Shown piece by piece: positions 6,901 through 49,786 of a stretch of 64,000 nucleotides of DNA. Within the stretch, counting starts at the first letter, position 1. Each line of letters opens with the position of its first letter. Origin of the DNA: an uncultured Pseudomonadota bacterium (lineage in GTDB: Bacteria > Pseudomonadota > Gammaproteobacteria > Steroidobacterales > Steroidobacteraceae); the NCBI GenBank assembly GCA_963712795.1, contig CAVQJH010000015.1, positions 577,543-641,542 on the forward strand, read 5' to 3'. A model generated the notes under the pieces. That model was given only the letters and a program-made list of their open reading frames with translations, was not told where the DNA came from and did not search any database. A program made the translations under genes and the position numbers.

Positions 6901-9900
6901 CGGACAGCACGATCCTTTCGGGCGCGCTCGTCGTGCAGGGGTTGAGCGGCGGGGCGGCCGGCGGGACGGTGAGCCAGGTCGGCAAACTCAGCGTCGGCAC
7001 CACGAGCAACATCGACACGGGCGCCAACGCGATCACGCTCGGCAACTCGGCCAACACCTTCGGCGGCAATGTCTCCTTCAACGGCGCCGCGGTGACGCTG
7101 GCGGCGGACGCCAACGGCCTGTCCAGCTCCGGCATTGCGAGCGGGAATTTGAGCGAGACGACCGCCGGCGACATCGCCGAAGGATCAGCGGGTATTCAGC
7201 TCACCGGGACGGCCGGGACGAACACTGCGACGTTTACCGTCAGCGGGACCACGCATAACGTCAACCTCAGCAGCGTCGCGAACAACTTCAACGACGAGGC
7301 GACCACGATCACCGCAAGCGGAGCGGGCGCGGCGGTCGGCAATATCGCGGTGACCGACCTCAACACGACATTCGTACCGCTGACCCTGCCGAAGCCGCTC
7401 GCGAGCCTGGTGTTGAACGATTCCAGTGCGCCGATCGTGCTCGCCGCAGCGACCCTCACGGGAGTGGGAGCCGGCACGAATCTCGCGGGGGGAACGACCA
7501 CGCTGGACGTCACTGCCGGTGGTGCGATCACGCAGAGCGGCGCAGTGTCGGTGACTGGTACGACGGCGCTGAATGCCAACGCCGGAACAGGCGCCATCAC
7601 ACTGAACAACGCCGCGAATGCGTTCAGCGGCAATGTCGGCTTCGCCGGTGGCGCGGTGACCCTGGCGAGCTCGGGTTCGCTGAGCACCTCCGGCATCGCG
7701 AGCGGCAATCTGAGCGAGACCGCCGGCGGCACGATCGGCGAAGGCGCGGCGGGGATTCAGCTCGGCGGAACGGCGGGGACGAACACCGCCACGTTCACCG
7801 TCACCGGGGGCACGCATGATGTGAACCTGGGCAACGCGGCTAACAACTTCAAGGGCGAGGCGACTACTGTCACGGCAACCGGTGGGGGCGCCGTCGGGAA
7901 TGTCAGTGTGGCGGACACGAACGCGGCTTTCGTGCCGCTGACCCTGGACGGGCCGCTCACGAGCCTGGTGCTGAGCGATCACAATGCGCCGATTACCCTC
8001 GGCCCCGTGGTGCTCGCCGGAGTGGGCGCCGGGACGAATCTCGCCGGAGGAACGACGACACTTGACGTCACCGCAGGCGGTGCAATCACGCAGAGCGGCG
8101 CAGTGGCGGTGACCGGCACGACGGCGCTGAATGCCGGCGGCGGCGGCGCCATCACCCTGAACGACCCCAGCAATTCCTTCAGCGGCAATGTCGCCTTCAC
8201 CGGCGGCGCGGTAGCCCTGCAGAGCGCGGGCGCTCTCAGCAGCTCCGGCACGGCGACCGGGAATCTCAGTGAGACCGCCGGTGGGACAATCAGTGAAGGC
8301 GCGGCGGGTATTCGGCTGACCGGGGCGGCAGGCGCGGATACAGCCACATTTACCGTCACCGGAGGCACACAGGACGTGAACCTCGGCAGCGCCGCGAACA
8401 ACTTCAACGATGATCCGACAATGATCGCGGCAAGCGGCGGCGCAGTGGGCAATGTCGCCGTGGCGGACACCAACGCGACCTTCGTGCCGCTGACGCTTTC
8501 CGGAACGCTTACGAGCCTGGTGCTGAGCGATCCCAATGCGCCGATCACGCTCGCCCCGGCGACCCTCACGGGAGTGGGCGCTGGGACGAATCTTGCAGGA
8601 GGAACGACGACGCTGGCCGTGACTGCCGGCGGCCCGATCACGCAGAGCGGCGCCCTGGTGGTGAGCGGCACCAGCGCGCTGATTGCCAGCAGCGGCACGG
8701 GCGACATCACGCTCAGCAACGCTGCCAATGTCTTCAACGGCGGCATCACGGTCCGCGGCAACAACGTGGCCGTGGCGAATGCGGCGGGCACGACGATCGC
8801 GGGGGCGAGCACGGCGGGCAGCCTGACGCTCGATACGGGCGGAGCGGTCGCCTTCGGCACCGTGAGCACGGACAGCACGACCGTTACGAACGGGCTCATC
8901 GTGCAGGGAGTGGGCGGCAGCGGACCCACCGGAGGACCGGTGAGCCAGGTCGGCAAGCTCGTCGTTGGAGGGACGACGTCGATCGATGCCGGCCCGAACG
9001 ACATTACGCTGTCGAACTCTGCCAATGCCCTGACGGGTGCAGTCACGTTCACCGGTGGGGCGGTGACGCTGGCGAACGCCGACGCGACGACACTTGCCGG
9101 CGCCGACAGCGCCGGCAGTCTGACGCTCGATGCCGGCGGAGCGGTCACTTTCGGGGCTGTGAGCACGGACAGCACGACGGTGGCGAACGGGCTCATCGTG
9201 CAGGGAGTGGGCGGCAGCGGCGCGGCCGGTGGGGCGGTGGGCCAGGTCGGCACCCTCGCCGTCGGCGGCACGAGCAACATCAACGCCGGTGGCAACGCGA
9301 TCACCCTCGGGAACCCGGCCAACAACTTCGGCGGCAATGTCGGCTTTGCCGGCTCGACCGTGGCCCTGGCGAGCGTCGGGCCGCTGAGCAGCTCCGGCTC
9401 GGCCAGGGGCAATCTCGCCGAGACGGCGGGCGGCACGATCGGCGAGGGCGCGGCGGGGATTCAGCTGACCGGGACGGCGGGGACGAACACCGCGACGTTT
9501 ACCGTCGCGGGAGTCACAGCCGATGTGAACCTTGGCAGCGCCGCGAACAACTTCAACGGCGAGGCGACGAGGATCGCGGCCAGCGGGGCAGGCGGCATCA
9601 TCGGGAATATCAGCGTCGCGGATACGAACACGACTTTCGTGCCGCTGACCCTGCCCGCGGCGACGCTCACGAGCCTGGTGCTGAGCGATCCCCATGCGCC
9701 GATCACGCTCGCCCCGGAGACTCTCACGGGAGTGGGCGCCGGGACGAATCTCGCCGGGGGAACGACGACGCTGGCCGTAACTGCCGGCGGGGCGATCACG
9801 CAGAGCGGCGCGCTGGTGGTGGACGGCACGAGCGCACTGAATACCACCGGCAACATCACACTGAGTAACGCCGCCAATACGTTCAACGGCGGTATTGCGC

Positions 9901-11591
9901 TCGGCGGCAATGACGTGACGGTAACCAATACGATCGCCACCACCGTCGCGGGCGCCAACACGACGGGCAGTCTGACCCTCGATTCCGGCGGGGCGGTGGC
10001 CCAAGCCGGTGCCCTCGTTGTCACGGGGACGACGTCTGTCAACGCTGGCACGAACGACATCACACTAGCGAATTCGTCCAATGCCTTGAGTGGTGCGGTC
10101 ACGATGACCGGCGGGGCGGTGTCGCTGGCGAACGCGGATGCGACGACATTCGCCGGCGCCACCAGCGTCAGCAGTCTGACGCTCGCTGCCGGCGGCGCAG
10201 TGAGTGAAACGGGAACATTGAGCGTTGCCACCACGACGTCGGTCAACGCGGGCACGAACGACATCAGCCTGGCGCAGGCCAACACCTTCGGTGGCAACGT
10301 GGCCTTCGGCGGTCACAATGTGTCGCTGGCCAGCGGCAGTGGCGACCTGATGAGCTCGGGCAGCGCGAGCGGGAATCTGACCGAGACGAGCGCCGGCGCG
10401 ATCACCCAGGGCGGGACGTTGAACGTCACGGGCAAGTCGACACTCACGGCGAATGGCGGGACGGGTGGCATCGCGCTGGGGAATGCAGGCAATACCTTCG
10501 CCGGTCCGGTCACTCTCAGTGGCGCAGCAGTGACGCTGGCGAACGCCGGCGCGATGACTCTCGCTGGCGCAAGCAAGGCGGCCAGCTTGACGCTCGACGC
10601 CGGCGGCGCGGTGACCTTCGGGGCCGCGAGCACCGACAGCACGACCGTGACGAACAACCTGATCGTGCAGGGAGTCAGCGGCAGCGGGGCGGCCGGCGGC
10701 GCAGTGAGCGAGGTCGGCAAACTCAACGTCGGCGGCACGACATCGATCGATGCCGGCAGCAACGACATCAATCTCAACCAGGTAAACACCTTCGGCGGCG
10801 GCGTGACCTTCGCCGGTCGCAACGTGGTGCTGACCGCCGGCGCGGGCGGTCTGACGAGCTCGGGTACGGCGAGTGGCACCTTGACCGAGATCGCCAAGGG
10901 TTCCTCTTCGGACCTGAACATCGGCAGCCTCAGTGCGGGGGGCCATACCCTGCTCATCGCCGGAGACAGCATTCTTGGCACGAGCGCGCAGGCGACCGTC
11001 ACCGCGAACAACGTGGAGGTGCGGTACGGCCTGGAGAATTCGAATGGCCAGCTCGGTAGCACCACCGCGGGTCAGCAGGTCGGATTCGTGGCGGCCGGAT
11101 CCCCGGGCGTGCAGCTGACCTTGTGGCTACCCGCGCCCGGCACCCAGTTCCAGAGCACGGATCTTCGCCAGACCGCGTCTGATTTGACCATCACCAGACA
11201 CCCCTTCGCGGCGGGAGAGCAGGAGATCCTGTACTCGGCGCCGTTCGGCGTGTCCCCGGGGCAGGTCACGGGCACTTTGGCCGCCATCCAATCCACGCTG
11301 CAGGGCACCGCCACTCAGTCGGCGGGGGTGGCGCAGGGCGCGGCCACTCAGGGGACCCAGAGCGTGCTCATCATCGACTGGGGCTCGTACAACCCGAACG
11401 TGAGCCTCTTCGGCACGCTCAATCCGGCGGTATGCCTGCCCGCCGATCAGCGTGACGAAAGCGTGGGTTCCGGCTCGGGGTGCGCCGCGGCCAGTGCTTC
11501 GGTCCTGAAGACTCCCACGCCGGCCCTGGTGGCCATGGTGCCGACGCAGGAAGGATGGAAGCCGATGCAGCTGTACTACCTGGCGCGCTGA
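3942..11591 (+). CDS. giant TpsA exoprotein (filamentous hemagglutinin/ShlA-like), 2549 aa, with N-terminal TPS secretion domain and long tandem-repeat beta-helix-like body
   Basis: Extended signal peptide. TPS domain: NPIGGAVVSGQGSISSPNATTTLINQQSNQLTLNWSSFNIASGQTVRFVQPSSSSVALNNILSQSPSQIFGELDANGRVVLINPNGILFGRSAQLNVGSLIASSLEL. The body is G/A/T/S/N-rich and highly repetitive. The C-terminal ~250 aa are unique, with no VENN/CDI-like motif recognised. Confidence 0.85.
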   Translation: MNNDAIRQFVRRELRAVTLGVATAIGIGGGLPAAIANPIGGAVVSGQGSISSPNATTTLINQQSNQLTLNWSSFNIASGQTVRFVQPSSSSVALNNILSQSPSQIFGELDANGRVVLINPNGILFGRSAQLNVGSLIASSLELKEYDPATGRLSFQSLSGHAGVIDNEGTITAARGGSVALLGGTVLNNGLVVADYGTVAMGAGDVATLDFYGGGLLRLQVSGDAKSNPSGAAAAVQNSGRIQANGGQVLLTAGATQGVFASAVDNSGVIRAGRIQNVGGVIELLGTDGAATNSGTLDASGADAASTGGTVTVTGNSVSLTAAAKINVSGAAGGGNAYIGGGLHGADSSVPNASSTSVASGATVDADATRAGNGGTIAVWSDGTTTAQGSFSANAGSAGGNGGMIETSGHVLNATGATVRAAAPAGDPGLWLLDPYNVAIDHGSGTSISGGNNGTNTTVFDGDINAALKGTGTGDGTDVTIETSQPAASSPTATGAITFGSGVVITNADNVTHTLTLDADTSIDLTATTAPSITSGTGALNLVLTANANGEAQTASTAGVTLAGTITVNDLTVTASGPISQTGGTIKASGNLSETAGGAISQGAAAGIQLTGTAGTNTATFTVKGGTFDVNLDGAANDFNDEATTIAASGTGAAVQNVDVVDTNATFVPLTLPGTLTSLVLSDANAPIALAAQTLTGVGAGNNLAGGTTTLDVTAGGAITQSGALVVTGTTALNADAGTTPAAITLSNASNTFSGNVAFTGTAVTLQSAGALSSSGSASGNLSETAGGTISEGTAGIQLGGTAGTNTATFTVTGGTFDVNLGNAANDFNDEATTIAATGTGAAVVNVSLADTNATFVPLTLPASLTSLVLSDPNAAIGLAAQTLTGVGAGNNLAGGTATLAVTAGGAITQSGALAVAGTTTLNADAGTANGAITLTNVGNAFNGSITATGGVVSLANTLSTTLAGADTASNLTLDSGGAVTFGTASTDSTILSGALVVQGLSGGAAGGTVSQVGKLSVGTTSNIDTGANAITLGNSANTFGGNVSFNGAAVTLAADANGLSSSGIASGNLSETTAGDIAEGSAGIQLTGTAGTNTATFTVSGTTHNVNLSSVANNFNDEATTITASGAGAAVGNIAVTDLNTTFVPLTLPKPLASLVLNDSSAPIVLAAATLTGVGAGTNLAGGTTTLDVTAGGAITQSGAVSVTGTTALNANAGTGAITLNNAANAFSGNVGFAGGAVTLASSGSLSTSGIASGNLSETAGGTIGEGAAGIQLGGTAGTNTATFTVTGGTHDVNLGNAANNFKGEATTVTATGGGAVGNVSVADTNAAFVPLTLDGPLTSLVLSDHNAPITLGPVVLAGVGAGTNLAGGTTTLDVTAGGAITQSGAVAVTGTTALNAGGGGAITLNDPSNSFSGNVAFTGGAVALQSAGALSSSGTATGNLSETAGGTISEGAAGIRLTGAAGADTATFTVTGGTQDVNLGSAANNFNDDPTMIAASGGAVGNVAVADTNATFVPLTLSGTLTSLVLSDPNAPITLAPATLTGVGAGTNLAGGTTTLAVTAGGPITQSGALVVSGTSALIASSGTGDITLSNAANVFNGGITVRGNNVAVANAAGTTIAGASTAGSLTLDTGGAVAFGTVSTDSTTVTNGLIVQGVGGSGPTGGPVSQVGKLVVGGTTSIDAGPNDITLSNSANALTGAVTFTGGAVTLANADATTLAGADSAGSLTLDAGGAVTFGAVSTDSTTVANGLIVQGVGGSGAAGGAVGQVGTLAVGGTSNINAGGNAITLGNPANNFGGNVGFAGSTVALASVGPLSSSGSARGNLAETAGGTIGEGAAGIQLTGTAGTNTATFTVAGVTADVNLGSAANNFNGEATRIAASGAGGIIGNISVADTNTTFVPLTLPAATLTSLVLSDPHAPITLAPETLTGVGAGTNLAGGTTTLAVTAGGAITQSGALVVDGTSALNTTGNITLSNAANTFNGGIALGGNDVTVTNTIATTVAGANTTGSLTLDSGGAVAQAGALVVTGTTSVNAGTNDITLANSSNALSGAVTMTGGAVSLANADATTFAGATSVSSLTLAAGGAVSETGTLSVATTTSVNAGTNDISLAQANTFGGNVAFGGHNVSLASGSGDLMSSGSASGNLTETSAGAITQGGTLNVTGKSTLTANGGTGGIALGNAGNTFAGPVTLSGAAVTLANAGAMTLAGASKAASLTLDAGGAVTFGAASTDSTTVTNNLIVQGVSGSGAAGGAVSEVGKLNVGGTTSIDAGSNDINLNQVNTFGGGVTFAGRNVVLTAGAGGLTSSGTASGTLTEIAKGSSSDLNIGSLSAGGHTLLIAGDSILGTSAQATVTANNVEVRYGLENSNGQLGSTTAGQQVGFVAAGSPGVQLTLWLPAPGTQFQSTDLRQTASDLTITRHPFAAGEQEILYSAPFGVSPGQVTGTLAAIQSTLQGTATQSAGVAQGAATQGTQSVLIIDWGSYNPNVSLFGTLNPAVCLPADQRDESVGSGSGCAAASASVLKTPTPALVAMVPTQEGWKPMQLYYLAR
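5700..10900 (+). repeat. intragenic tandem repeat array inside tpsA: ~560-nt (~190-aa) modules, each beginning SGNLSETAGG…GIQLTGTAGTNTATFTV…, interleaved with a second module type (…LTLD(S/A)GGAVTFG(T/A)(V/A)STDSTTV…)
   Basis: Near-identical DNA seeds (gcgagcggcaatctgagcgagac[cg]gccgg…) recur at ~5706, 6272, 7140, 7700, 8258, 9410, 10370 and 10868. Spacings are 558-566 nt, or 868/1150 nt where the second module type is inserted. Confidence 0.8.
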
Positions 11592-15846: not shown

Positions 15847-16482
15847 TCATCGATCCTTGGGAGTCCCGCGCGCTCTCGTCGCCGCCTGAGCTCTCAAGGC
15901 CCGTGCTACGACCTCGAGGCCGGCGCTGGTGCGGCGCGCCTCCTCAGCCATGCGTCTGCGGAGCACCCAGGGGCCGATGACGGGTGGCACCCAGAACGCC
16001 GGCACCAGTTCGATCCTCGCGTCCAGGCACGTCGTCGCATGAGTCATGGCGCAGGCCCCGACGGTCCAGCGGGCATACCCCGCTTTAAAATCGCCGCCAT
16101 GTGGCAAGAGATCGGCCTCGAGCACGCCGCCATCCGCATTGGCGACTGCCGTCATGACCTGCTCCTGATGCATGGTCTTGCAAAAGATCAGCACACACGT
16201 GTGAACCGCGGTGAAGAGCCGCACACGACCCGGAACTCCTGTTGGTTGGACGCGGACCGCACGCAGGTCAGGGTTGTACCGCATCATGGCGGAGTAGTCC
16301 TGCAGCGCACGAAACACCGCGGGCGGCGACGCGTCAATTGCGACGTGCATGCCGATCACGAAACGCGTACCGTCACGCGTCACCTGCACGGAAAGTACTT
16401 GGGCCGCGTGCGCTTGCATCGCGAACCACGTCAGCGCCATTGCAGCGCAAAAGCCTAATTTCAGGCGTCTCAGTGCGACCAT
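15847..16482 (-). CDS. secreted hypothetical protein, possibly SRPBCC (cyclase/dehydrase-like) fold
   Basis: Signal peptide (MVALRRLKLGFCAAMALTWFAMQAHAAQV). ~180-aa mature region with an alternating beta/alpha pattern (SVQVTRDGTRFVIGMHVAIDASPPAVFRALQDY…). Family call is weak. Confidence 0.4.
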   Translation of the reverse strand: MVALRRLKLGFCAAMALTWFAMQAHAAQVLSVQVTRDGTRFVIGMHVAIDASPPAVFRALQDYSAMMRYNPDLRAVRVQPTGVPGRVRLFTAVHTCVLIFCKTMHQEQVMTAVANADGGVLEADLLPHGGDFKAGYARWTVGACAMTHATTCLDARIELVPAFWVPPVIGPWVLRRRMAEEARRTSAGLEVVARALRAQAATRARGTPKDR

Positions 16483-16619
16483 ATCCAGGTCGTACCCGGC
16501 ATCGGGCGCTGTGTCAATGCATCCCGGCCACGCATTGCCAAGGGCTGCAAATCAGTTCAAAATTCACCCCCCGCTCAGAAGCCCCGGCGAGCACTCCCCG
16601 GGGCTTCTCGTCGTCTAAT

Positions 16620-16690
16620 GGCTAGGTGGCAGAGTGGTCATGCAGCGGCCTGCAAAGCCGTCTACGCCGGTTCGATTCCGACCCTAGCCT
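16620..16690 (+). tRNA. tRNA-Cys (anticodon GCA)
   Basis: Cloverleaf by hand: acceptor GGCTAGG/CCTAGCC; anticodon stem GCGGC/GCCGT with loop CTGCAAA (anticodon GCA); T-arm GCCGG-TTCGATT-CCGAC (one C·A mismatch); discriminator U typical of tRNA-Cys. Strong similarity to bacterial tRNA-Cys (…GCAAA.CCGTCTA..CCGGTTCGA.TCCG…). CCA not encoded. Confidence 0.8.
16671..16687 (+). repeat. attL-like direct repeat: 3' end of tRNA-Cys (ttcgattccgaccctag)
   Basis: Exact 17-nt copy recurs at 20348-20364. Confidence 0.7.
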
Positions 16691-16948
16691 GATTTCGCCT
16701 TGTCCTGCGACGTACCGAGAAGATCAATGACGTCGCAAAAAGCCCGGAAAACCCTGCAAATCCCGCCTATCGGCGTCTCGAGCTGTCCATTGACAGGATA
16801 GCACAGGGTGGGGTACATGGCGGGGGTATCTCGGGAGTCAACTAACAGATACCCCACTTTCGCCATGCCAGTACTCAACGAGCTGAAAATCCGCGCCGCC
16901 AGGCCGAATGAGAGGGCTACAGGAAACTCATTCTACAGCCGAGTGCCG

Positions 16949-17884
16949 CTAAAGGCCCTTCGGAATGAACAACTTCCAATCGTCGTTGTAAGCGGGATTC
17001 TTTGTGCCGTGTGCGAGATGGAATTTGAACTGACTGACCCGAGACCGAAACGGCTCTAGGCTGTCTGCGCGGTAGCTCGCGCGTGACATCAGAAACCCAA
17101 TGGCCTGCGCGTACGGGTAGGAGTAGTTAAGTTGATCGAGGATCGAGGCCAGCGCCGGTGCCGATACACGTTCACGTGCGACCTCGAATGCATTGAGTAC
17201 CTGGTGGATACCGCCTGCGTAGGCGGGTCGAACCGTTACATCGATAAGCGTTCTTTCAAGATTTGTAGTTTTCGTGCCTAAAGCCTCTGGGTGGGTGCTC
17301 GGCTCGACACCAAGTCGACCGGTGTTCTTGCCGGCCAGAATCATCACCTTCAGGTTCCCGTTCTCGTAGGAGAGCTTTGAGTGTCGTTGCTTGCCTGCAA
17401 AGGCACGGTCAATTGCAAGCTGAGACAACGGTGAGTTGCGAGCGGGCTTGGCGCTTTGCTCTACGTTCAGATAAATCCCAGGTGGTGGCGTCTTGATGAG
17501 CCTGTGTAAATAGGCCGCAGTTCCGTGGCTGAGGTAGCCGTTTTTGCGTAGTGAGGCGGCAAGTGCAAAGGGTGAGGGTGGGCCAACGCAGTAGCGCTTC
17601 GCTTCTTTCGAGTACTCTTTGGACTCGAGGGAGACCGAGATCAGATGTTTGCGAATAACTAGGAAGTTGAGGAATGCATCGAGGGTTGTGCTTTTCGCGA
17701 GGGTCCCTTCGCGACGCAGCCGACGAAATGGTTCAGCGAGCTCGGGACGGGTGTAGATTCGGCCTGGATGCGGGCTAATTGCGGCGAGTATTCGCGTTTC
17801 GCCTCTTACCAGCTTGGTTCTAAAGGGCATGTTCAGTAACCATCTCCCAGGAAGGTATATATACCCTCCTGGAGATGGTGCCAT
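16949..17884 (-). CDS. hypothetical protein (possibly AbiEi-like wHTH regulator/antitoxin); start may be 17830 (MPFRTK…)
   Basis: 311-aa ORF in the island with lower GC and non-repetitive sequence. No catalytic motifs recognised; family assignment is a guess. Confidence 0.4.
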   Translation of the reverse strand: MAPSPGGYIYLPGRWLLNMPFRTKLVRGETRILAAISPHPGRIYTRPELAEPFRRLRREGTLAKSTTLDAFLNFLVIRKHLISVSLESKEYSKEAKRYCVGPPSPFALAASLRKNGYLSHGTAAYLHRLIKTPPPGIYLNVEQSAKPARNSPLSQLAIDRAFAGKQRHSKLSYENGNLKVMILAGKNTGRLGVEPSTHPEALGTKTTNLERTLIDVTVRPAYAGGIHQVLNAFEVARERVSAPALASILDQLNYSYPYAQAIGFLMSRASYRADSLEPFRSRVSQFKFHLAHGTKNPAYNDDWKLFIPKGL

Positions 17885-17953
17885 CGAGTTCCTCAGACCC
17901 CGGCTCCTCCTTTGAGAGGAGGGAAGGAAGGCCTTGCCAGCCCCGCCACTTGC

Positions 17954-17979
17954 TTAATGTAATCTTCCTATTACACTAA
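17954..17979 (+). promoter_or_regulatory. imperfect inverted repeat TTAATGTAAT-N6-ATTACACTAA upstream of hipB; candidate HipB operator
   Basis: Half-sites match 8/10 as reverse complements. Located 17-42 nt upstream of the hipB start. Confidence 0.3.
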
Positions 17980-17995
17980 TGGCATTTTATGGAAC

Positions 17996-18343
17996 ATGAA
18001 GATTACATCTATGCCCACCCCACATAGGCCTTCCATCGGTGTTCGCAGAGCCCTGCGCAAGCTTGGACACGACCTGCGCGATGCGAGACGACGTCGCGGT
18101 CTCCCGGCCTGGGTTGTGGCCGAACGCGCCTTTACTAGCCGCCCCACTCTACAGCGCGTCGAACAGGGAGATCCGGCCGTAGGTATTGGCATCTATGCCG
18201 CCGTCCTCCAAGCGCTCGGATTTCTTGATGAGCTAAGCCAGGTCGCTGATGCAAGTCGCGACGCTGCTGGCGTTGCCCTAGCCAACGAGAAGTTGCCGCA
18301 GCGAATTCGATTGCGGCGCGTACCCGAGATCAATCGTGGCTGA
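17996..18343 (+). CDS. hipB: HipB-like XRE-family HTH antitoxin/transcriptional regulator
   Basis: 115-aa protein with an HTH region (LRDARRRRGLPAWVVAERAFTSRPTLQRVEQGD). Overlaps the hipA start by 8 nt. Confidence 0.7.
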   Translation: MKITSMPTPHRPSIGVRRALRKLGHDLRDARRRRGLPAWVVAERAFTSRPTLQRVEQGDPAVGIGIYAAVLQALGFLDELSQVADASRDAAGVALANEKLPQRIRLRRVPEINRG

Positions 18344-19583
18344 AATCGAAGTCTATATCGATTTCGCGCCGGGATTGAAGCGCGTTGGGACGCTGCACCG
18401 CCATGCGCGACGTGGCGGAGAAGCGATCAGTTTCGAGTACCACGCAGACTGGCTTGCGGATCCAGCAAGATTTTCTCTGGAGCCTGCCCTTGCACTCGGC
18501 CGGGGCGCGTTTGCCCCCGCCGACCAGCAGCTAATTTTTGGCTCCATCGGCGACTCCGCGCCGGATACGTGGGGCCGCCGCCTGATGCAACGCGCCGAGC
18601 GCCGGCGCGCCGTGCGCGACGGTCGCGCGCCGCGCACCCTTCAAGAACTCGATTATCTTCTCGGAGTGTCCGATGTCTCCCGTCTTGGTGCGCTACGATT
18701 CCGTAACGCCGGAGAGGAGGCCTTCCAGTCTTCGGCCGCAGGTGGTGTACCTAAACTCGTTGACCTCGGTCGGCTGCTCGGAGTGACCGAGCGGATCCTT
18801 CGCGAGGAGGAGACAGACGAGGACCTGCAGATGATCTTCGCGCCAGGCTCATCTCTCGGGGGAGCACGGCCAAAAGCGTCAGTCGTTGATCAGCACGGCC
18901 AACTTTCCATCGCCAAATTTCCAAAGGAAATCGACGAGTACAGCATGGAGCTGTGGGAGTTCGTTGCGCTTAATCTCGCAAAGCAAGCCGGAATTCGAAC
19001 TCCTGTTAATGAGTTACTCAGCGTCGCCGGTAGGCCTGTATTGCTCTCGCGTCGCTTCGATCGTGCCGATGCCACACGCATCCCGTTTCTATCTGGTCTT
19101 TCGATGCTGACCCTCAAGGATGGAGAGCGCGCCAGCTACCCAGAGCTAGTGGACGTGCTAACTGAGAATGGCGCTCAAGCGCGAGAGGACGCGCATGAGT
19201 TGTACAGGCGAATGGTCTTGAACGTGCTGATCTCAAATGACGATGATCACTTGCGCAACCACGGCTTTCTATGGACAGGACCACAAGGCTGGACACTTTC
19301 GCCGGCGTACGACCTAAATCCCACACCCGTGGACGTACGTCCACGCATTCTGAGCACGAACATCACTCTGGACGACGCCACGTGTGACCTGGACCTTGTA
19401 CTTTCGACCGCGGAGTACTTTTCTCTGGCGCTCAGGGATGCGAGACAGGTAGTTAGCGAGGTTGCCAAGACAACCGTGAAGTGGCGAGAAGTGGCCGCTG
19501 AAGCGGGCGCCTCCAATGCCGAAATTCAACGCATGGCAAGCGCGTTTGAGCACGACGACCTGCACCGCGCCCTCGCTCTTTGA
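18336..19583 (+). CDS. hipA: HipA-family serine/threonine kinase toxin (type II TA)
   Basis: HipA N-terminal domain plus kinase core motifs: SLGGARPK (cf. SLSGAQPK) and DDHLRNHGF (catalytic loop); also LSPAYDLNPT. Typical hipB-hipA overlap. Confidence 0.85.
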   Translation: MAEIEVYIDFAPGLKRVGTLHRHARRGGEAISFEYHADWLADPARFSLEPALALGRGAFAPADQQLIFGSIGDSAPDTWGRRLMQRAERRRAVRDGRAPRTLQELDYLLGVSDVSRLGALRFRNAGEEAFQSSAAGGVPKLVDLGRLLGVTERILREEETDEDLQMIFAPGSSLGGARPKASVVDQHGQLSIAKFPKEIDEYSMELWEFVALNLAKQAGIRTPVNELLSVAGRPVLLSRRFDRADATRIPFLSGLSMLTLKDGERASYPELVDVLTENGAQAREDAHELYRRMVLNVLISNDDDHLRNHGFLWTGPQGWTLSPAYDLNPTPVDVRPRILSTNITLDDATCDLDLVLSTAEYFSLALRDARQVVSEVAKTTVKWREVAAEAGASNAEIQRMASAFEHDDLHRALAL

Positions 19584-19624
19584 AAGGCATCCAGCAAGCG
19601 AGTGGACGATGCACGACGTGAACC

Positions 19625-20266
19625 TCACCGTGTTCTTTCCAACACCCGCTCGCGGACCAGGTCATCTTCTCGAGTCCTCGCTGATCTCTGCGCGTTTACA
19701 CGGCGAATGAGTTCGCTGGCGATTCGCTCCCGATCCGTGAGCACCGGTGGCAGGCTCTTTACGAATTGCCGGACCTCGCTCGCGAGAACGGTTTCTCCTT
19801 GCTTTTCCAGCAGGGCAGTCACTCCCCGCCAACCGGCGACCACTACCTTTCGCGTCTCAGCTAGTTTGGCGTGCGCCGGATCGCGAATCGTGCCGGACCT
19901 AGCCAGCTCTCTGGCGACGCCTTCGACCTTGTCGCGGAGGGCATATGAGGTTCGCCGTCTCGTGGTCCGGTAGTGGCCATCCCGCTCAACTCCCTTGCTT
20001 CGTCCCCGCACCACCCGCGGCGTTGCGTTGGCGGCGACACCCTGGTCCCGCATCATCCGCGCGAAGTCCTGGCGCCACTCGCGTAGCATCGCTTTGCCGA
20101 TGTGGAGAAGGGAGGGACACCCGGACCGGGCGGGGACGCATTCTCCGAGTACAATCGGCACGGCGAGCGGAAGGACCCATGATCGGCCTCGTTTACAGGC
20201 TGGTTGTGGTAGGCGCTCGCTCGTGTTACCGCACGGGCGGGCGCCGCCTTGAACAGACTGAGGCAC
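19625..20266 (-). pseudogene. relic of a MOB relaxase gene (C-terminal ~160 aa only); N-terminal relaxase domain missing
   Basis: Residues from …LLHIGKAMLREWRQDFARMMRDQGVAANATPRVVRGRSKG… onward align with 58846-59706 (…LHIDKPMLREWREDFARTMREQGIAANATSRVIRGRNKG…). The first ~55 aa of the ORF do not align. No HxDxxHxH motif is present. Confidence 0.6.
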
Positions 20267-20347
20267 GATCGGCAGGGGTATGCCTTCGGGGTATCCGGGA
20301 AGGAGGTCGGCTAATCCGCTTTCGGTTTCAAAGGCTTAGGTCCATCC

Positions 20348-20364
20348 TTCGATTCCGACCCTAG
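20348..20364 (+). repeat. attR-like direct repeat (ttcgattccgaccctag), copy of the tRNA-Cys 3' end
   Basis: Exact 17-nt match to 16671-16687. Lies right after the relaxase relic and before the GC-rich nmrA-like gene. Confidence 0.7.
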
Positions 20365-20401
20365 TTCGATCTCAATCTTCATTTGGTGTGAACGTCGCGG
20401 T

Positions 20402-21274
20402 TCACGCCCTCACGGCCTTCTGGGCCGCCGCGAAGACCTCGCGTGCGGACGTCGTACCCGCTACGTGCTCCGTACCCGCGACTCCGAGGTCCATCCATCC
20501 TGCATTCACGGCCTCAAACATTTCTTCGGCAGGTCCGGTGTGGCCCTTCGGGATGCCGAATTGCTCGAACGCTTCCGCCCACCCTGCACGCGGGACTGCA
20601 AAGGCTTTCACGTCGAGATTCAGGACTTCACCCAATTGCTCCGCGACTTCATCCGCGGTGATCATCGAACCAAGCTCGACGACGCGCTGCCCTGACCACG
20701 CTGGCCCGGTCAAAAGGGTTGCCACCTCCGCGCCGATGTCGTTCGTCGCGACCATGGTCGACTTCCGGTTTGTCGGATTGTAGTAGACCGGTAGCGTTCC
20801 ACCCTGGGCGACCTGCAAGCCGTAGAGGAAGTTTTCGAAGAATCCACCTGCGCGCACAAATGCAATTGGCGATACCAGGTCGCGAAAACCTTGCTCCAGA
20901 AGCGACAAGGCCGTGATCATCCCAAGCCCGCTGGTCCTGTTCGCACCCATCGATGAAAGCGCCACCACCCGCGGCGGCGCTGCCTTGGTGAGCGCCTCGA
21001 CATAGTTCGCGATCACGCCCTTGGCTTCTTTGTAATCGGGCGAGGGGGCCCAGACAGCCGGCAACATGACAAACGCGCCTTCGACACCTTTGAGCGCCCG
21101 CTCGATGGCTGCCGATTCATTCCAATCACCCTCAACCAGTTCCACGCCCTGGTTCGCCCAGCTTGACGCCTTCTCGCGATTGCGGACCAGCGCTCGTACT
21201 TCCTTGCCGCGCGCCAACAGATGTGCTGCCGTTGCGCCGCCGACTTTTCCCGTGATTCCCATTACTAAAAACAT
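20402..21274 (-). CDS. NmrA-like NAD(P)-binding (atypical SDR) family protein
   Basis: N-terminal Rossmann motif MFLVMGITGKVGGATAAHLLARGKEVRALVRN. Length and pattern typical of the NmrA/HSCARG family. Confidence 0.8.
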   Translation of the reverse strand: MFLVMGITGKVGGATAAHLLARGKEVRALVRNREKASSWANQGVELVEGDWNESAAIERALKGVEGAFVMLPAVWAPSPDYKEAKGVIANYVEALTKAAPPRVVALSSMGANRTSGLGMITALSLLEQGFRDLVSPIAFVRAGGFFENFLYGLQVAQGGTLPVYYNPTNRKSTMVATNDIGAEVATLLTGPAWSGQRVVELGSMITADEVAEQLGEVLNLDVKAFAVPRAGWAEAFEQFGIPKGHTGPAEEMFEAVNAGWMDLGVAGTEHVAGTTSAREVFAAAQKAVRA

Positions 21275-21319
21275 GTGTTTTCTCCTGATCTTGAGGGGCA
21301 GAGCACTGCCCCTGTTGGT

Positions 21320-21742
21320 TCAACTGATGAGCGGCAGAATGGCCCGGATACGGGGATCGCGCGCATAGAGGCCGCCCCATGTCATCGCGCCCAGAAGCAG
21401 GGCAATGATTTCCGGCGGCGATCCCAACTCACCAATGCGGACATGGGCGCAGATGGCACCTCCCAAAAAGCCCGTCACCAGGATCGCGCCGAGGACGGCG
21501 GTGGCCGGGATGGCGTAAAGGATGGCGCAGGCGAGTATGATCGGACCCACGATGCGGGTCAGGTCCATCGCGAACCCGGTTTCCTGCAACATGCTCGCGA
21601 TCTGTGCCGGCGCGAAAAGCTGAATAGTGGCGTCTGCCACCAGAGCGATAACGACAAACGCGCTCATTATCCGGCCGGCCCACAGGGCGCGATGCAAAGT
21701 CATAGTTTCAGGCACCTGATGCAGATTCATAGTTTCGGGCAC
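21320..21742 (-). CDS. DoxX-family membrane protein
   Basis: ~130-aa protein with 3-4 TM helices (RIMSAFVVIALVADATIQLFAPAQ…IVGPIILACAILYAI…ILVTGFLGGAICAHV). Start ambiguous (21742/21730/21703). Confidence 0.7.
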   Translation of the reverse strand: MPETMNLHQVPETMTLHRALWAGRIMSAFVVIALVADATIQLFAPAQIASMLQETGFAMDLTRIVGPIILACAILYAIPATAVLGAILVTGFLGGAICAHVRIGELGSPPEIIALLLGAMTWGGLYARDPRIRAILPLIS

Positions 21743-21765
21743 TTGTCATTCTCCGATAGGGGGAT

Positions 21766-21782
21766 CCCCTATTTCCGGAGCT
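21766..21782 (+). promoter_or_regulatory. near-perfect palindrome ATAGGGGGATCCCCTAT in the divergent doxX/nmrA-lysR intergenic region; candidate LysR-type (T-N11-A / ATAG-N-CTAT) box
   Basis: Seen directly in sequence, ~80 nt upstream of the lysR-family start and ~25 nt upstream of doxX. Confidence 0.35.
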
Positions 21783-21863
21783 TACTGTGTCTCTTGGGTA
21801 TGATAAACGCCGAGGAACTGAACTTACTGTTCTCTCCACGGCGAACAATACCGAGGCACGAAA

Positions 21864-22769
21864 ATGCAGAATCTCGAACCTATCCTCATTTTCATAACGG
21901 TAGCGGAAATGGGGAGCTTCACCCACGCAGCCGATAGCCTGGGCATTCAGAAGGGAAGGGCCTCAACGGCGGTCCGGAAGCTGGAAGAAGATGTCGGTGT
22001 CAGGCTTCTGCACCGGACGACGCGTAGCGTGCAGTTGACGGAAGACGGACGGGTTTTTCATGCGCGTGCCCGCGATCTGCTTGCTGACGTTGACGATCTG
22101 TACTCAATGTTCGCAAGCGATCGAGTGGCTCTTCGCGGGCGCTTACGGGTTGATCTGCCGAGCGAGCTGGCGCGCACCACTATCGTGCCGGCCTTGCCGG
22201 CCTTCATGGCGACTTATCCCGAGTTGGAGCTGGAGGTGTCGAGTACGGATCGCCAAGTTGATCTGGTTCAAGAGGGGTTTGACTGCGTATTGCGACTTGG
22301 TCCCATCGGGGACGAGACGCTGATTGCGCGCCCGCTGGGCAAGTTACGCATGATCAACGCCGCCAGTCCTGCCTACCTGGCGCGCCATGGCGTCCCTCGA
22401 TCGCTGGAAGATCTGCAGCATCAGGAACATCGGGCAATTCATTTCGCGAGGACACTCGGCGCAAAACCCTATGGATGGGAGTATCCGCACGGCGATAGCT
22501 ACGCGAGGCTTCAGTTGCGAGGTGCGCTGCACGTCAACAGCGTGCAGTCCTACGAAGCCGCTGGCATCGCCGGCCTTGGCCTGATTCAGGCACCACTGTT
22601 GGCGATTGGGCGTTACTTGGAGAGTGGAGCGTTGATAGAGCTTCTACCAGATTTTCAGCACAAGCCGCTCGACGTCTCCCTGGTAGTAGCGCATCGGCGC
22701 AACCTGTCACGCCGAGTCCGCGCATTCATGAAATGGATCGAAAATGTGCTCGCGCCCCACCTGGAATAG
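21864..22769 (+). CDS. LysR-family transcriptional regulator
   Basis: N-terminal HTH (ILIFITVAEMGSFTHAADSLGIQKGRASTAVRKLEEDVGVRLLHRTTRSVQLTEDG). LysR substrate-binding domain follows. Divergent from the doxX-nmrA pair. Confidence 0.85.
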   Translation: MQNLEPILIFITVAEMGSFTHAADSLGIQKGRASTAVRKLEEDVGVRLLHRTTRSVQLTEDGRVFHARARDLLADVDDLYSMFASDRVALRGRLRVDLPSELARTTIVPALPAFMATYPELELEVSSTDRQVDLVQEGFDCVLRLGPIGDETLIARPLGKLRMINAASPAYLARHGVPRSLEDLQHQEHRAIHFARTLGAKPYGWEYPHGDSYARLQLRGALHVNSVQSYEAAGIAGLGLIQAPLLAIGRYLESGALIELLPDFQHKPLDVSLVVAHRRNLSRRVRAFMKWIENVLAPHLE

Positions 22770-22828
22770 CGCTGCAGTGCCGCGTGCAACGTCATCGAAT
22801 CCATTTCGGATCGAGCGCGGTATAATTA

Positions 22829-49711: not shown

Positions 49712-49786
49712 AGCAAGTTAGCTCAGTGGGTAGAGCGACGGCCTTGTAAGCCGTAAGTCGCGGGTTCGACTCCCGTACTTGCACCA
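49712..49786 (+). tRNA. tRNA-Thr (anticodon TGT)
   Basis: D-arm GCTC-AGTGGGTA-GAGC. Anticodon arm ACGGC-CTTGTAA-GCCGT (anticodon UGU). T-arm GCGGG-TTCGACT-CCCGT. Strong similarity to bacterial tRNA-Thr(UGU). The acceptor stem pairs only 6/7 in my hand fold (GCAAGT/ACTTGC), so exact 5'/3' ends are uncertain by 1 nt. Ends …CACCA. Confidence 0.7.

What the first reader, a model, noticed from the sequence alone, without database searches (positions are those of the whole stretch)
16620..20364. tRNA-Cys-integrated island remnant bounded by exact 17-bp direct repeats, carrying hipBA and a relaxase relic but no integrase
The 3' 17 nt of tRNA-Cys (ttcgattccgaccctag, 16671-16687) recur exactly at 20348-20364, the signature of site-specific integration (attL/attR). 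The enclosed 3.7 kb has lower GC. It holds a 311-aa unknown protein, a HipB/HipA toxin-antitoxin pair (HipA motifs SLGGARPK, DDHLRNHGF) and only the C-terminal third of a MOB relaxase. No recombinase is present, so this looks like a decayed integrative mobilisable element stabilised by its TA module.
Basis: seen in the sequence. Interest (0 to 1): 0.6.

Follow-up and report, generated by a model that had tools for sequence, protein, structure and literature searches.

The report
Decayed mobilisable island at tRNA-Cys

Summary
tRNA-Cys(GCA) lies at 16620-16690, and its 17-nt T-loop-to-acceptor segment recurs exactly at 20348-20364, with none expected by chance.

Intact relatives at the same tRNA-Cys in other Steroidobacteraceae metagenome contigs (L028, L029) carry genes in this order: P4-type integrase, 159-aa ORF, 886-aa SMC-like ATPase, AbiEi-like regulator, hipB, hipA, MOB relaxase, MobC, AlpA-like HTH. 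The window keeps that order but has two precise deletions:
- A 4,456-bp deletion at 16917/16918 leaves only 17 integrase codons.
- A deletion at 20108-20115 leaves the non-catalytic C-terminal 47% of the relaxase, joined to about 235 bp of the element's right end.

hipBA and the AbiEi-like gene are intact and under purifying selection. The "311-aa unknown" is a 293-aa AbiEi-family regulator whose ATPase partner was deleted.

Three corrections apply: an integrase relic exists, the relaxase piece is about half rather than a third, and stabilisation by the toxin-antitoxin pair is plausible but untested.

One oddity remains. The right repeat is followed by TTC, not the CCT found in all eight other junctions of this family.

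This is a new member of a known kind, of low to moderate interest.

The parts
16620..16690 (+). tRNA-Cys(GCA) gene, the integration target. Its last 20 nt (16671-16690) are the identity block shared with the element's attP.
   Evidence: ARAGORN; Rfam tRNA 58.6 bits. The sequence is identical in 13 related loci.
16671..16687 (+). attL core: first copy of the exact 17-bp direct repeat, starting at the first base of the T-loop.
16691..16864 (+). Left end of the element (attL arm and integrase upstream region). It is conserved in relatives that carry the element or its relics, and absent in relatives that do not.
   Evidence: blastn homology runs from the flank through the tRNA to 16917 in L007, L012, L014, L017, L028, L029 and L031. 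It reaches 16875 in L018 and 16801 in L016. It stops at the tRNA end in L008-L011 and L013.
16865..16917 (+). Integrase relic: start codon plus 17 codons (MPVLNELKIRAARPNER) of a P4-type tyrosine integrase. Deletion junction 1 lies at 16917|16918.
   Evidence: tblastn gives 92% identity over 37 residues to the start of the L012 integrase ORF and its upstream extension. The junction alignment with L028 (401 aa; Arm-DNA-bind_3, Phage_int_M, Phage_integrase) shows window 16917 matching both L028 10930 and L028 6473. This gives a 4,456-bp deletion with 1 nt of microhomology.
16949..17830 (-). AbiEi-family regulator or antitoxin homologue, 293 aa and intact. Its co-directional partner in the intact relative L028, an 886-aa SMC/LmuB-like ATPase, has been deleted.
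   Evidence: tblastn to plasmid AbiEi proteins, 36% identity, E 8e-48. PADLOC AbiEi 5.6e-16. Pfam AbiEi_1 is below its cut-off. A 100%-identical 293-aa database entry, and a family whose members are 293-299 aa long. L028 context. dN/dS 0.15 against L028.
17839..17879 (.). Nested palindromes (ACCATCTCC...GGAGATGGT; CCAGGAAGGTATA/TATACCCTCCTGG) just upstream of the AbiEi-like start. Inferred to be an autoregulatory operator.
   Evidence: the repeat finder. The function is inferred only.
17954..18008 (.). Palindromes (TTAATGTAAT-N6-ATTACACTAA, with a second GATTACAT arm) just upstream of and overlapping the hipB start. Inferred to be a HipB operator.
   Evidence: the repeat finder. The function is inferred from known HipB autoregulation.
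18011..18343 (+). hipB: XRE/HTH_31 antitoxin, 110 aa as in relatives. An alternative start at 17996 gives 115 aa. It overlaps hipA by 8 bp.
   Evidence: Pfam HTH_31 1.2e-08. NCBIfam couple_hipB is a weak match. Relatives are 110 aa. dN/dS 0.04-0.20.
18336..19583 (+). hipA: HipA-family Ser/Thr kinase toxin, 415 aa and intact.
   Evidence: Pfam HipA_C 1.3e-44 and Couple_hipA 4.9e-05. The DxHxxN and YDL motifs align to Legionella HipT. More than 120 clusters at 74-93% identity are nearly all 415-416 aa long. dN/dS 0.11-0.18.
19625..20110 (-). Relaxase relic: the C-terminal 161 residues (about 184-344 of 344) of a MOBP/VirD2-like relaxase. The catalytic Tyr region and the HTHQEHPHVH motif are missing. 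The ORF's first ~52 codons read into unrelated right-end DNA.
   Evidence: tblastn to plasmid relaxases, E 1e-18. Homologues carry PF03432. 81% amino-acid identity to L028 relaxase residues 183-344. The hipA-to-relaxase 3' junction is shared with L022 and L025-L027.
20108..20115 (.). Deletion junction 2. The middle of the relaxase is joined to the right end of the element across a few nt of microhomology. The deletion removes relaxase residues 1-183, MobC/NikA, the AlpA-like HTH_17 and more.
   Evidence: Two blastn alignments to L018 (10155-10664 and 2499-2748) both end at window 20115. The L028 alignment ends at 20108.
20115..20347 (.). Right end of the element (attR arm).
   Evidence: 88-94% identity to the DNA next to the core in L018 and in L032 and L034-L037; 76-79% to the same DNA in L027 and L033.
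20348..20364 (+). attR core: second copy of the exact 17-bp repeat.
20365..20384 (+). Twenty nt after attR (TTCGATCTCAATCTTCATTT). They replace the expected CCT plus chromosomal flank and resemble a degenerate second core: 11 of 20 match, and 8 of 9 mismatches are transitions. Unexplained.
   Evidence: only 4 of 127,960 window positions reach this criterion, including the two real cores and this site. All 8 other junctions of the family have CCT here.

Best explanation
The segment 16688-20364 is a deletion derivative of an integrative mobilisable element (IME) of roughly 13 kb. This IME family uses a P4-type tyrosine integrase to insert into the T-loop-to-3'-end of the tRNA-Cys(GCA) gene of Steroidobacteraceae.

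Shown:
- The intact relatives L028 and L029 have the order tRNA-Cys, int, 159-aa ORF, 886-aa SMC-like ATPase, AbiEi-like regulator, hipB, hipA, relaxase, MobC/NikA, AlpA-like HTH, onward to a right end that lies off the contig.
- The window has the same order and orientation.
- Two microhomology-type deletions account for the differences. One removes 4,456 bp: integrase codons 18-401, the 159-aa gene and the ATPase gene. The other removes the catalytic half of the relaxase and everything up to about 235 bp from attR.
- Both att cores and both element ends survive. [quoted passage not shown]

Inferred:
- The remnant cannot excise or transfer on its own. The integrase and the AlpA-like HTH protein (the putative excision factor) are gone, the relaxase has no catalytic half, and oriT has probably been lost with the MobC-proximal region.
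- The surviving hipBA acts as a type II toxin-antitoxin pair. HipA would be a kinase that arrests growth, and HipB would neutralise it and repress the operon at the palindromes upstream of hipB.
- The addictive nature of hipBA, or a benefit it confers, is why it outlives the rest of the element.
For: 1. The repeat is exact and non-random.
2. L018 carries a homologous element bounded by the same repeat at the same tRNA. Beyond its attR lies sequence that in L013 directly follows tRNA-Cys, so the pair approximates occupied versus unoccupied sites.
3. In L008-L011 and L013, homology to the window stops at the last base of the tRNA. In L007, L012, L014, L016-L018, L028, L029 and L031 it continues into the element's left end.
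4. L028 and L029 have the full gene set in the same order. Window-to-L028 alignments break at single points, 16917 and 20108.
5. The right end next to attR is 88-94% identical to the DNA next to the core in L018 and five metagenome contigs, and 76-79% in L027 and L033.
6. Between the window and L028, synonymous divergence of element genes (dS 0.10-0.51) is below that of the adjacent chromosomal gene (0.83). This indicates transfer or exchange after the hosts diverged.
7. GC is 0.586 against 0.673 in the left flank.
8. hipA, hipB and the AbiEi-like gene are full length with dN/dS 0.04-0.18.
9. hipBA persists in at least three other independently decayed arrangements (L016; L022-L024; L025-L027) and beside a newer element in L018. 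Two of these groups keep the same hipA-to-relaxase 3' junction.
10. The CIME definition and the decay-and-accretion scenario are described in PMC5704250.
Against: - No true empty site was found, meaning tRNA-Cys directly followed by the window's right flank (NmrA). It was absent from 11 related genomes and from a pattern scan of metagenome contigs.
- The window's attR core is followed by TTC instead of the CCT seen in all other junctions. The right boundary has therefore undergone a further, unexplained change.
- The right end of the intact relative L028 lies off its contig. The size of the second deletion is estimated from L018, which carries an extra IS66.
- Toxicity of HipA, neutralisation by HipB, and any stabilising effect are untested.
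- Pairwise dN/dS averages over both lineages, so it cannot prove that selection still acts in the window's own lineage.
Confidence: 0.9

Rival explanations
1. The remnant is still mobile as a CIME. A related incoming IME of the same family, or a cognate integrase elsewhere in the genome, could recombine attL and attR. It could also integrate alongside and carry the remnant out as a composite (accretion and cis-mobilisation). This refines the best explanation rather than contradicting it.
For: Both cores are intact, including the T-loop segment, and about 230 bp of each arm is conserved. Junctions of the form right end-core-left end exist in relatives (L027, L033, and shorter versions in L032, L034, L036, L037). 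These are either tandem accretions or attP of circular forms. The mechanism is documented for other elements (PMC5704250).
Against: No homologue of the cognate integrase is present anywhere in the 64-kb window. The attR repeat lacks the last 3 nt of the normal 20-bp block. Without MobC, the presumed oriT region and the relaxase catalytic half, mobilisation would require co-integration with a complete element. Nothing here shows excision.
Confidence: 0.2
2. The segment is a composite made by tandem accretion of two different elements followed by deletion. hipBA and the AbiEi-like gene would come from one element, and the relaxase relic and right end from another. It would not be a single decayed element.
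For: In L018, hipBA lies outside the repeat-bounded element. Synonymous divergence is heterogeneous along the island, 0.10 to 0.51. Tandem arrays are common at this locus.
Against: L028, L029 and L031 have AbiEi-like, hipB, hipA and relaxase contiguous and in the same order and orientation within one element that also has an integrase. The intergenic hipA-to-relaxase junction is shared by the window, L022 and L025-L027. Two simple deletions from an L028-type ancestor explain everything.
Confidence: 0.06
3. The genes are ancestral chromosomal genes and the 17-bp repeat is a coincidence or a local duplication.
For: hipBA sits between tRNA-Cys and the OMT-M13 peptidase block in several species, which superficially resembles conserved synteny.
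Against: No chance matches are expected. The repeat is flanked on its inner sides by sequences homologous to the two ends of a repeat-bounded element in L018. Several relatives lack all of it. Element dS is lower than flank dS, and GC is lower.
Confidence: 0.01
4. It is the remnant of a P4-like phage satellite or prophage rather than a conjugatively mobilised element.
For: The family has a P4-type integrase with an Arm-DNA-bind_3 domain and an AlpA-like HTH_17 protein, both also typical of satellites.
Against: Intact relatives encode a MOB relaxase and a MobC/NikA accessory protein, and no capsid, primase or packaging genes. The tRNA-Cys 3' end (core with flanking bases, 21 nt) has no match in the viral contig collection.
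Confidence: 0.03

Closest known systems
CIMEs (cis-mobilizable elements) derived from ICEs or IMEs by deletion, e.g. the ICESt1/CIME family of Streptococcus thermophilus (as reviewed in PMC5704250)
   Same: The element is flanked by attL and attR at the 3' end of a target gene. Its integration and transfer genes have been lost by internal deletion. Related intact elements use the same site, and tandem arrays with decayed partners occur at the same locus.
   Different: The host is a Gammaproteobacterium (Steroidobacteraceae), the target is tRNA-Cys, and the parent is an IME with a relaxase only, not an ICE. Cis-mobilisation has not been shown. The attR block is shortened to 17 of 20 bp.
Salmonella Genomic Island 1 with its sgiAT toxin-antitoxin module (PMC5006074)
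   Same: An integrative mobilisable element carries a toxin-antitoxin pair that is proposed, and in SGI1 shown, to promote maintenance of the island.
   Different: SGI1 integrates at trmE, is intact and is mobilised by IncA/C plasmids, and sgiAT is a different toxin-antitoxin family. Here the element is defunct, the module is hipBA, and the maintenance role is only inferred.
tRNA-integrating islands and phages with P4-type or other tyrosine integrases that cross over in the T-loop, e.g. mycobacteriophage Ms6 at tRNA-Ala (PMC1762012)
   Same: The identity block starts at the T-loop and runs to the 3' end of the tRNA, so the gene is restored after integration. The integrase gene lies next to the tRNA.
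   Different: This is a different tRNA, host and cargo. In the window the integrase is reduced to 17 codons.
HipBA type II toxin-antitoxin systems (E. coli HipA/HipB; Legionella HipT(Lp), PDB 8EZR)
   Same: An XRE-type HipB gene overlaps the start of a HipA_C kinase gene. The catalytic-loop DxHxxN and YDL motifs are present, and palindromes lie upstream.
   Different: The sequence is distant from all solved HipA-family structures (best E 4e-07, over the kinase core only). The kinase target is unknown. The module is carried as cargo of a tRNA-Cys IME family.
AbiE (AbiEi/AbiEii) type IV toxin-antitoxin and abortive-infection systems
   Same: The 293-aa protein matches AbiEi models. In plasmids its homologues sit beside AbiEii nucleotidyltransferase genes.
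   Different: No AbiEii is present here. In the intact relative the neighbour is an 886-aa SMC/LmuB-like ATPase, not AbiEii. In plasmids the pair is convergent rather than an operon.

Membership tests
tRNA-integrated genomic island / integrative mobilisable element (IME) | Direct repeat of the 3' part of a tRNA gene bounding the inserted DNA | tested here: met
   An exact 17-mer at 16671-16687 and 20348-20364, with 0 expected by chance. The same repeat bounds a homologous element in L018.
tRNA-integrated genomic island / integrative mobilisable element (IME) | Site-specific recombinase gene, usually next to the tRNA | tested here: not met
   Only codons 1-17 remain, at 16865-16917. Relatives L028 and L029 have the full 401-aa P4-type integrase at that position. 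No other homologue is present in the window.
tRNA-integrated genomic island / integrative mobilisable element (IME) | Functional relaxase (catalytic Tyr and His-triad) and oriT, without a type IV secretion system | tested here: not met
   The relic lacks residues 1-183, which include the HMVYISHDG and HTHQEHPHVH motifs present in L028. MobC/NikA and the DNA upstream of it are deleted. oriT was not mapped.
tRNA-integrated genomic island / integrative mobilisable element (IME) | Presence/absence polymorphism among related genomes | tested here: met
   L008-L011 and L013 lose homology to the window at the end of the tRNA. L007, L012, L014, L016-L018, L028, L029 and L031 carry the element or relics of it. 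An exact empty site with the window's own right flank was not found.
CIME (cis-mobilizable element; PMC5704250) | Retains attL and attR | tested here: met
   Both 17-bp cores and about 230 bp of each arm are conserved. attR lacks the last 3 nt of the usual 20-bp block.
CIME (cis-mobilizable element; PMC5704250) | Has lost integration and transfer genes by decay of an ICE or IME | tested here: met
   Two deletion junctions were mapped against L028 and L018.
CIME (cis-mobilizable element; PMC5704250) | Can be excised or mobilised in cis after accretion with a functional element | not testable with these tools
   Only indirect evidence exists: tandem or attP-like junctions in L027 and L032-L034, L036, L037.
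HipBA type II toxin-antitoxin system | HipA_C kinase domain with catalytic-loop and Mg-binding motifs | tested here: met
   Pfam HipA_C 1.3e-44 over the full profile. NDDDHLRNHGF and SPAYDL align to GNEDMHLKNFS and SPAYDL of Legionella HipT.
HipBA type II toxin-antitoxin system | Upstream, overlapping HTH (XRE) antitoxin gene | tested here: met
   HTH_31 at 1.2e-08. hipB's stop overlaps hipA's start by 8 bp. The NCBIfam couple_hipB match is below its cut-off.
HipBA type II toxin-antitoxin system | Toxicity of HipA and neutralisation and autorepression by HipB | not testable with these tools
   Palindromes at 17954-18008 are candidate operators.
AbiE (AbiEi/AbiEii) system | AbiEi-type antitoxin or regulator | tested here: met
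   PADLOC AbiEi 5.6e-16. tblastn to annotated AbiEi, E 8e-48. Pfam AbiEi_1 scores 17.9 bits, below its 22.2 cut-off.
AbiE (AbiEi/AbiEii) system | Adjacent AbiEii (DUF1814) nucleotidyltransferase toxin | tested here: not met
   No AbiEii-like sequence was found near 16949. The intact relative has an SMC/LmuB-like ATPase instead.
MOBP/VirD2-like relaxase (PF03432) | N-terminal nuclease domain with catalytic Tyr and HxDxxxPHxH-type motif | tested here: not met
   Pfam finds no domain in the 213-aa ORF. Homology starts just after the His motif of L012, L018 and L028.

The most novel reading that the evidence does not exclude
hipBA may be the selfish 'last survivor' of this IME family. Independent deletions have repeatedly stripped the integrase, relaxase and defence cargo in different Steroidobacteraceae lineages, yet they always stop short of hipBA. 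Losing hipB first would be lethal. The locus would then be a natural, replicated experiment showing addiction-driven persistence of a toxin-antitoxin module on a chromosomal island. The remnant might also still be rescuable in cis by incoming sister elements at this tRNA-Cys hotspot.
Probability: 0.3. Interest if true: 0.4.

Novelty: new member of a known kind. Interest (0 to 1): 0.25.

Why it matters
The case has modest value. It gives a clean, base-pair-resolved example of how an integrative mobilisable element decays into a CIME in an uncultured soil lineage. It defines a previously undescribed tRNA-Cys-targeting IME family in Steroidobacteraceae, with its att core, arms, integrase and relaxase. 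It also documents that the hipBA cargo survives repeated independent decay.

This is useful for annotating these MAGs and for studies of toxin-antitoxin-mediated island retention. It does not change any concept.

Tried and rejected
- I looked for an AbiEii relic at the 3' end of the AbiEi-like gene. The + strand ORF 16808-17059 was compared with plasmid AbiEii proteins and searched against plasmids, and nothing was found. The idea that AbiEii was the lost partner was dropped once L028 showed an SMC-like ATPase there.
- I searched viral contigs for the tRNA-Cys 3' end (core with flanking bases, 21 nt): no match.
- I searched metagenome contigs for an empty site, meaning the tRNA-Cys T-arm and core followed within 30 nt by the NmrA terminator: none.
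- I looked for a displaced original tRNA 3' end or further core copies at up to 3 mismatches: none in the window.
- I checked whether the L018 288-aa gene next to its tRNA was an integrase. It is not, and L018 also lacks an integrase.
- I looked for repeats of the tRNA-Thr 3' end that might bound the second mobilisation module: none.
- Looking up the window's own 293-aa protein to name the source record failed, because it is not on record by exact match.
- The sigma-70 and terminator scans were uninformative, at background level.

Full report
**1. The observation**

The window carries tRNA-Cys(GCA) at 16620-16690 on the + strand (ARAGORN; Rfam 58.6 bits). The 17-mer TTCGATTCCGACCCTAG occurs exactly twice, at 16671-16687 and 20348-20364. 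No further copy appears even at 3 mismatches, and none occurred in 100 shuffles. The repeat begins at the first base of the T-loop and covers the 3' T-stem and five bases of the acceptor stem (read).

GC is 0.586 between the repeats, against 0.647 for the window and 0.673 for the left flank. The next 2.45 kb (NmrA-DoxX-LysR) is also low, at 0.595.

An independent short-read metagenome contig (L001) is 99.96% identical over 17998-20577. The right-hand structure is therefore not an assembly artefact.

**2. Gene content**

- **16949-17884 (-).** The true start is at 17830, giving 293 aa, the same length as a 100%-identical database entry and typical of the family. It is an AbiEi-family protein: tblastn to plasmid homologues gives E 8e-48 and PADLOC AbiEi gives 5.6e-16. 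Pfam AbiEi_1 falls below its cut-off.
- **hipB (18011-18343; HTH_31) and hipA (18336-19583; HipA_C 1.3e-44).** These form an overlapping pair. HipA's catalytic-loop and YDL motifs align with Legionella HipT, the closest solved relative, at only E 4e-07.
- **19625-20266 (-).** This ORF matches MOBP/VirD2-type relaxases only over its C-terminal part.

**3. Host and locus in relatives**

The flanking SRPBCC gene retrieved 11 Steroidobacteraceae MAG loci. Ten have the same SRPBCC-tRNA-Cys arrangement with an identical tRNA 3' end; the eleventh (L015) is cut off within the SRPBCC gene and holds no tRNA-Cys.

In L008-L011 and L013, homology to the window stops at the last base of the tRNA. In L007, L012, L014 and L017 it continues to window position 16917, in L018 to 16875 and in L016 to 16801. 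In L012 this conserved stretch runs into a P4-type integrase gene beginning MPVLNELKIRAARPKERAYKLFD. The window has MPVLNELKIRAARPNER at 16865-16915 and then diverges. An integrase relic of 17 codons therefore sits exactly where the integrase should be.

**4. A repeat-bounded relative**

L018 (JGI metagenome contig) has tRNA-Cys and a second exact copy of the core 9.4 kb away. The DNA just inside its distal core is 90% identical to window 20115-20364. Its relaxase C-terminal half is 80% identical to window 19607-20115. Both alignments end at window 20115.

Beyond its distal core, L018 has CCT and then sequence homologous to what directly follows tRNA-Cys in L013. This approximates an occupied/unoccupied pair.

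**5. Intact relatives and the two deletions**

Close homologues of the AbiEi-like protein led to L028 and L029. Downstream of the same tRNA-Cys these carry, in order:
- a 401-aa integrase (Arm-DNA-bind_3, Phage_int_M, Phage_integrase)
- a 159-aa ORF
- an 886-aa SMC_N/AAA_23 ATPase with LmuB-like PADLOC hits
- the AbiEi-like gene, hipB and hipA
- a 344-aa relaxase (PF03432), a MobC/NikA-like protein, an HTH_17 (AlpA-like) protein and AbiEi_4

The window aligns to L028 in three colinear blocks:

| Window | L028 | Identity |
|---|---|---|
| 15913-16917 | 11925-10930 | 78% |
| 16917-17876 | 6473-5515 | 86% |
| 17948-20108 | 5398-3238 | 92% |

Junction 1 is a 4,456-bp deletion with one base of microhomology. 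It removes integrase codons 18-401, the 159-aa gene and the ATPase gene.

Junction 2 lies at 20108-20115. It joins relaxase residue ~184 to the last ~235 bp of the element across a few bases of microhomology. It removes the catalytic Tyr region and the HTHQEHPHVH motif, MobC, HTH_17 and more. From L018 the gap is 7.4 kb including a 2.4-kb IS66, so about 5 kb. The ancestor was therefore about 13 kb.

**6. Was hipBA original cargo?**

L028, L029 and L031 have AbiEi-like, hipB, hipA and relaxase contiguous within one element. The short spacer between the hipA stop and the relaxase stop, together with a few terminal relaxase codons, is shared by the window, L022 and L025-L027. L022-L024 also keep a 29-residue relic of the AbiEi-like gene upstream of hipB. 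A composite origin is therefore unnecessary.

Relatives show other decay states:
- L016 has tRNA, 110 nt of left end, a DUF2442-like ORF and hipBA.
- L017 has about 110 integrase codons and no hipBA.
- L018's element also lacks an integrase.

More distant hipBA copies (77%) sit at other sites. One has an AbiEi-like relic (L038), and one lies next to tRNA-Glu (L040).

**7. Selection and transfer**

Window-versus-L028 comparisons:

| Gene | dN/dS | dS |
|---|---|---|
| hipA | 0.14 | 0.19 |
| hipB | 0.04 | 0.10 |
| AbiEi-like | 0.15 | 0.51 |
| relaxase C-half | 0.29 | 0.34 |
| chromosomal SRPBCC (flank) | 0.31 | 0.83 |

The element is younger in these hosts than the hosts' divergence, which is consistent with horizontal movement. 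hipBA is constrained.

**8. The right boundary**

A metagenome scan for right end plus core gave six more junctions. With L018 and L027, that makes eight, and all have the core followed by CCT, giving a 20-bp block that completes the tRNA. After that block, two contigs (L018 and L035) continue into chromosomal-type flank. The other six continue into 13-110 nt of the element's left end, which indicates tandem accretion or attP.

Only the window, and L001 from the same strain, has TTC followed by unrelated DNA that runs into the NmrA terminator. The 20 nt after the core match the core at 11 of 20 positions, and 8 of 9 mismatches are transitions. This is rare in the window: 4 of 127,960 positions reach the criterion, counting the two real cores and this site. 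I cannot explain it. An older, degenerate att core from an earlier integration is possible.

No relative carries the NmrA-DoxX-LysR block, and no empty site with that flank was found.

**9. Interpretation**

The segment is a decayed IME. [quoted passage not shown]

It is inferred to be immobile on its own. It might be rescuable by a sister element, but no cognate integrase is present in the window.

hipBA is inferred to be a working type II toxin-antitoxin pair, with candidate operators at 17954-18008. Its persistence across independently decayed copies fits addiction or benefit, as shown for sgiAT on SGI1 (PMC5006074). This is untested here.

**10. Verdict**

This is a new member of a known kind. 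Interest is low to moderate at 0.25.

Noticed in passing
window 56916-59706: A second, related mobilisation module lies on the + strand. It comprises right-end-like DNA (56920-57249, 69% to L018), an HTH_17 gene (57629-57895), MobC (58142-58675) and a relaxase. The relaxase is split between two frames (58677-59198 and 59149-59661; 53-60% amino-acid identity to the L028 relaxase; PF03432). The window contains no cognate integrase and no repeat of the tRNA-Thr (49712-49785) 3' end.
   Followed up: partly
window 20365-22818: A NmrA-family reductase, a DoxX-like membrane protein and a LysR regulator form a low-GC (0.595) block between attR and the conserved orf92-OMT-M13 peptidase genes. No sampled relative has this block, so it is probably another acquired segment.
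   Followed up: partly
window 20365-20384: The attR core is followed by TTCGATCTCAATCTTCATTT. This matches the 20-bp att block at 11 of 20 positions with 8 of 9 mismatches being transitions, whereas every other junction in the family has CCT here. It may be a degenerate older core. Unexplained.
   Followed up: partly
L018 2499-11922: A 9.4-kb element bounded by exact 20-bp repeats at tRNA-Cys also lacks an integrase. It carries an IS66 insertion and an AbiEi_4/AbiEii pair. hipBA lies outside its attR.
   Followed up: yes
L027 1-240; L033 1588-1905; also L032, L034, L036, L037: Junctions of the form right end-core(20 bp)-left end are the configuration of attP or of tandem accretion of elements. 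The left-end remnants vary from 13 to 115 nt.
   Followed up: partly
L028 5560-9742 (and L029, L030): The AbiEi-like 293-aa gene is followed co-directionally by an 886-aa SMC_N/AAA_23, LmuB-like ATPase and a 159-aa ORF, a candidate defence cassette. In plasmids of three phyla the same AbiEi-like protein instead converges on, and overlaps by 4-24 bp, an AbiEii gene.
   Followed up: partly
L012 1950-8219: The cargo between integrase and relaxase in this relative is a five-gene block (425, 367, 354, 288 and 688 aa) that includes P-loop proteins and a metallophosphoesterase-like protein. It is probably a defence system and was not analysed.
   Followed up: no
window 17839-17879 and 17954-18008: Strong palindromes lie in the divergent AbiEi-like/hipB intergenic region and are candidate operators for the two regulators.
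   Followed up: no
window 3942-11591: A very long ORF (2,549 aa) lies on the + strand upstream of the locus. It was not examined.
   Followed up: no
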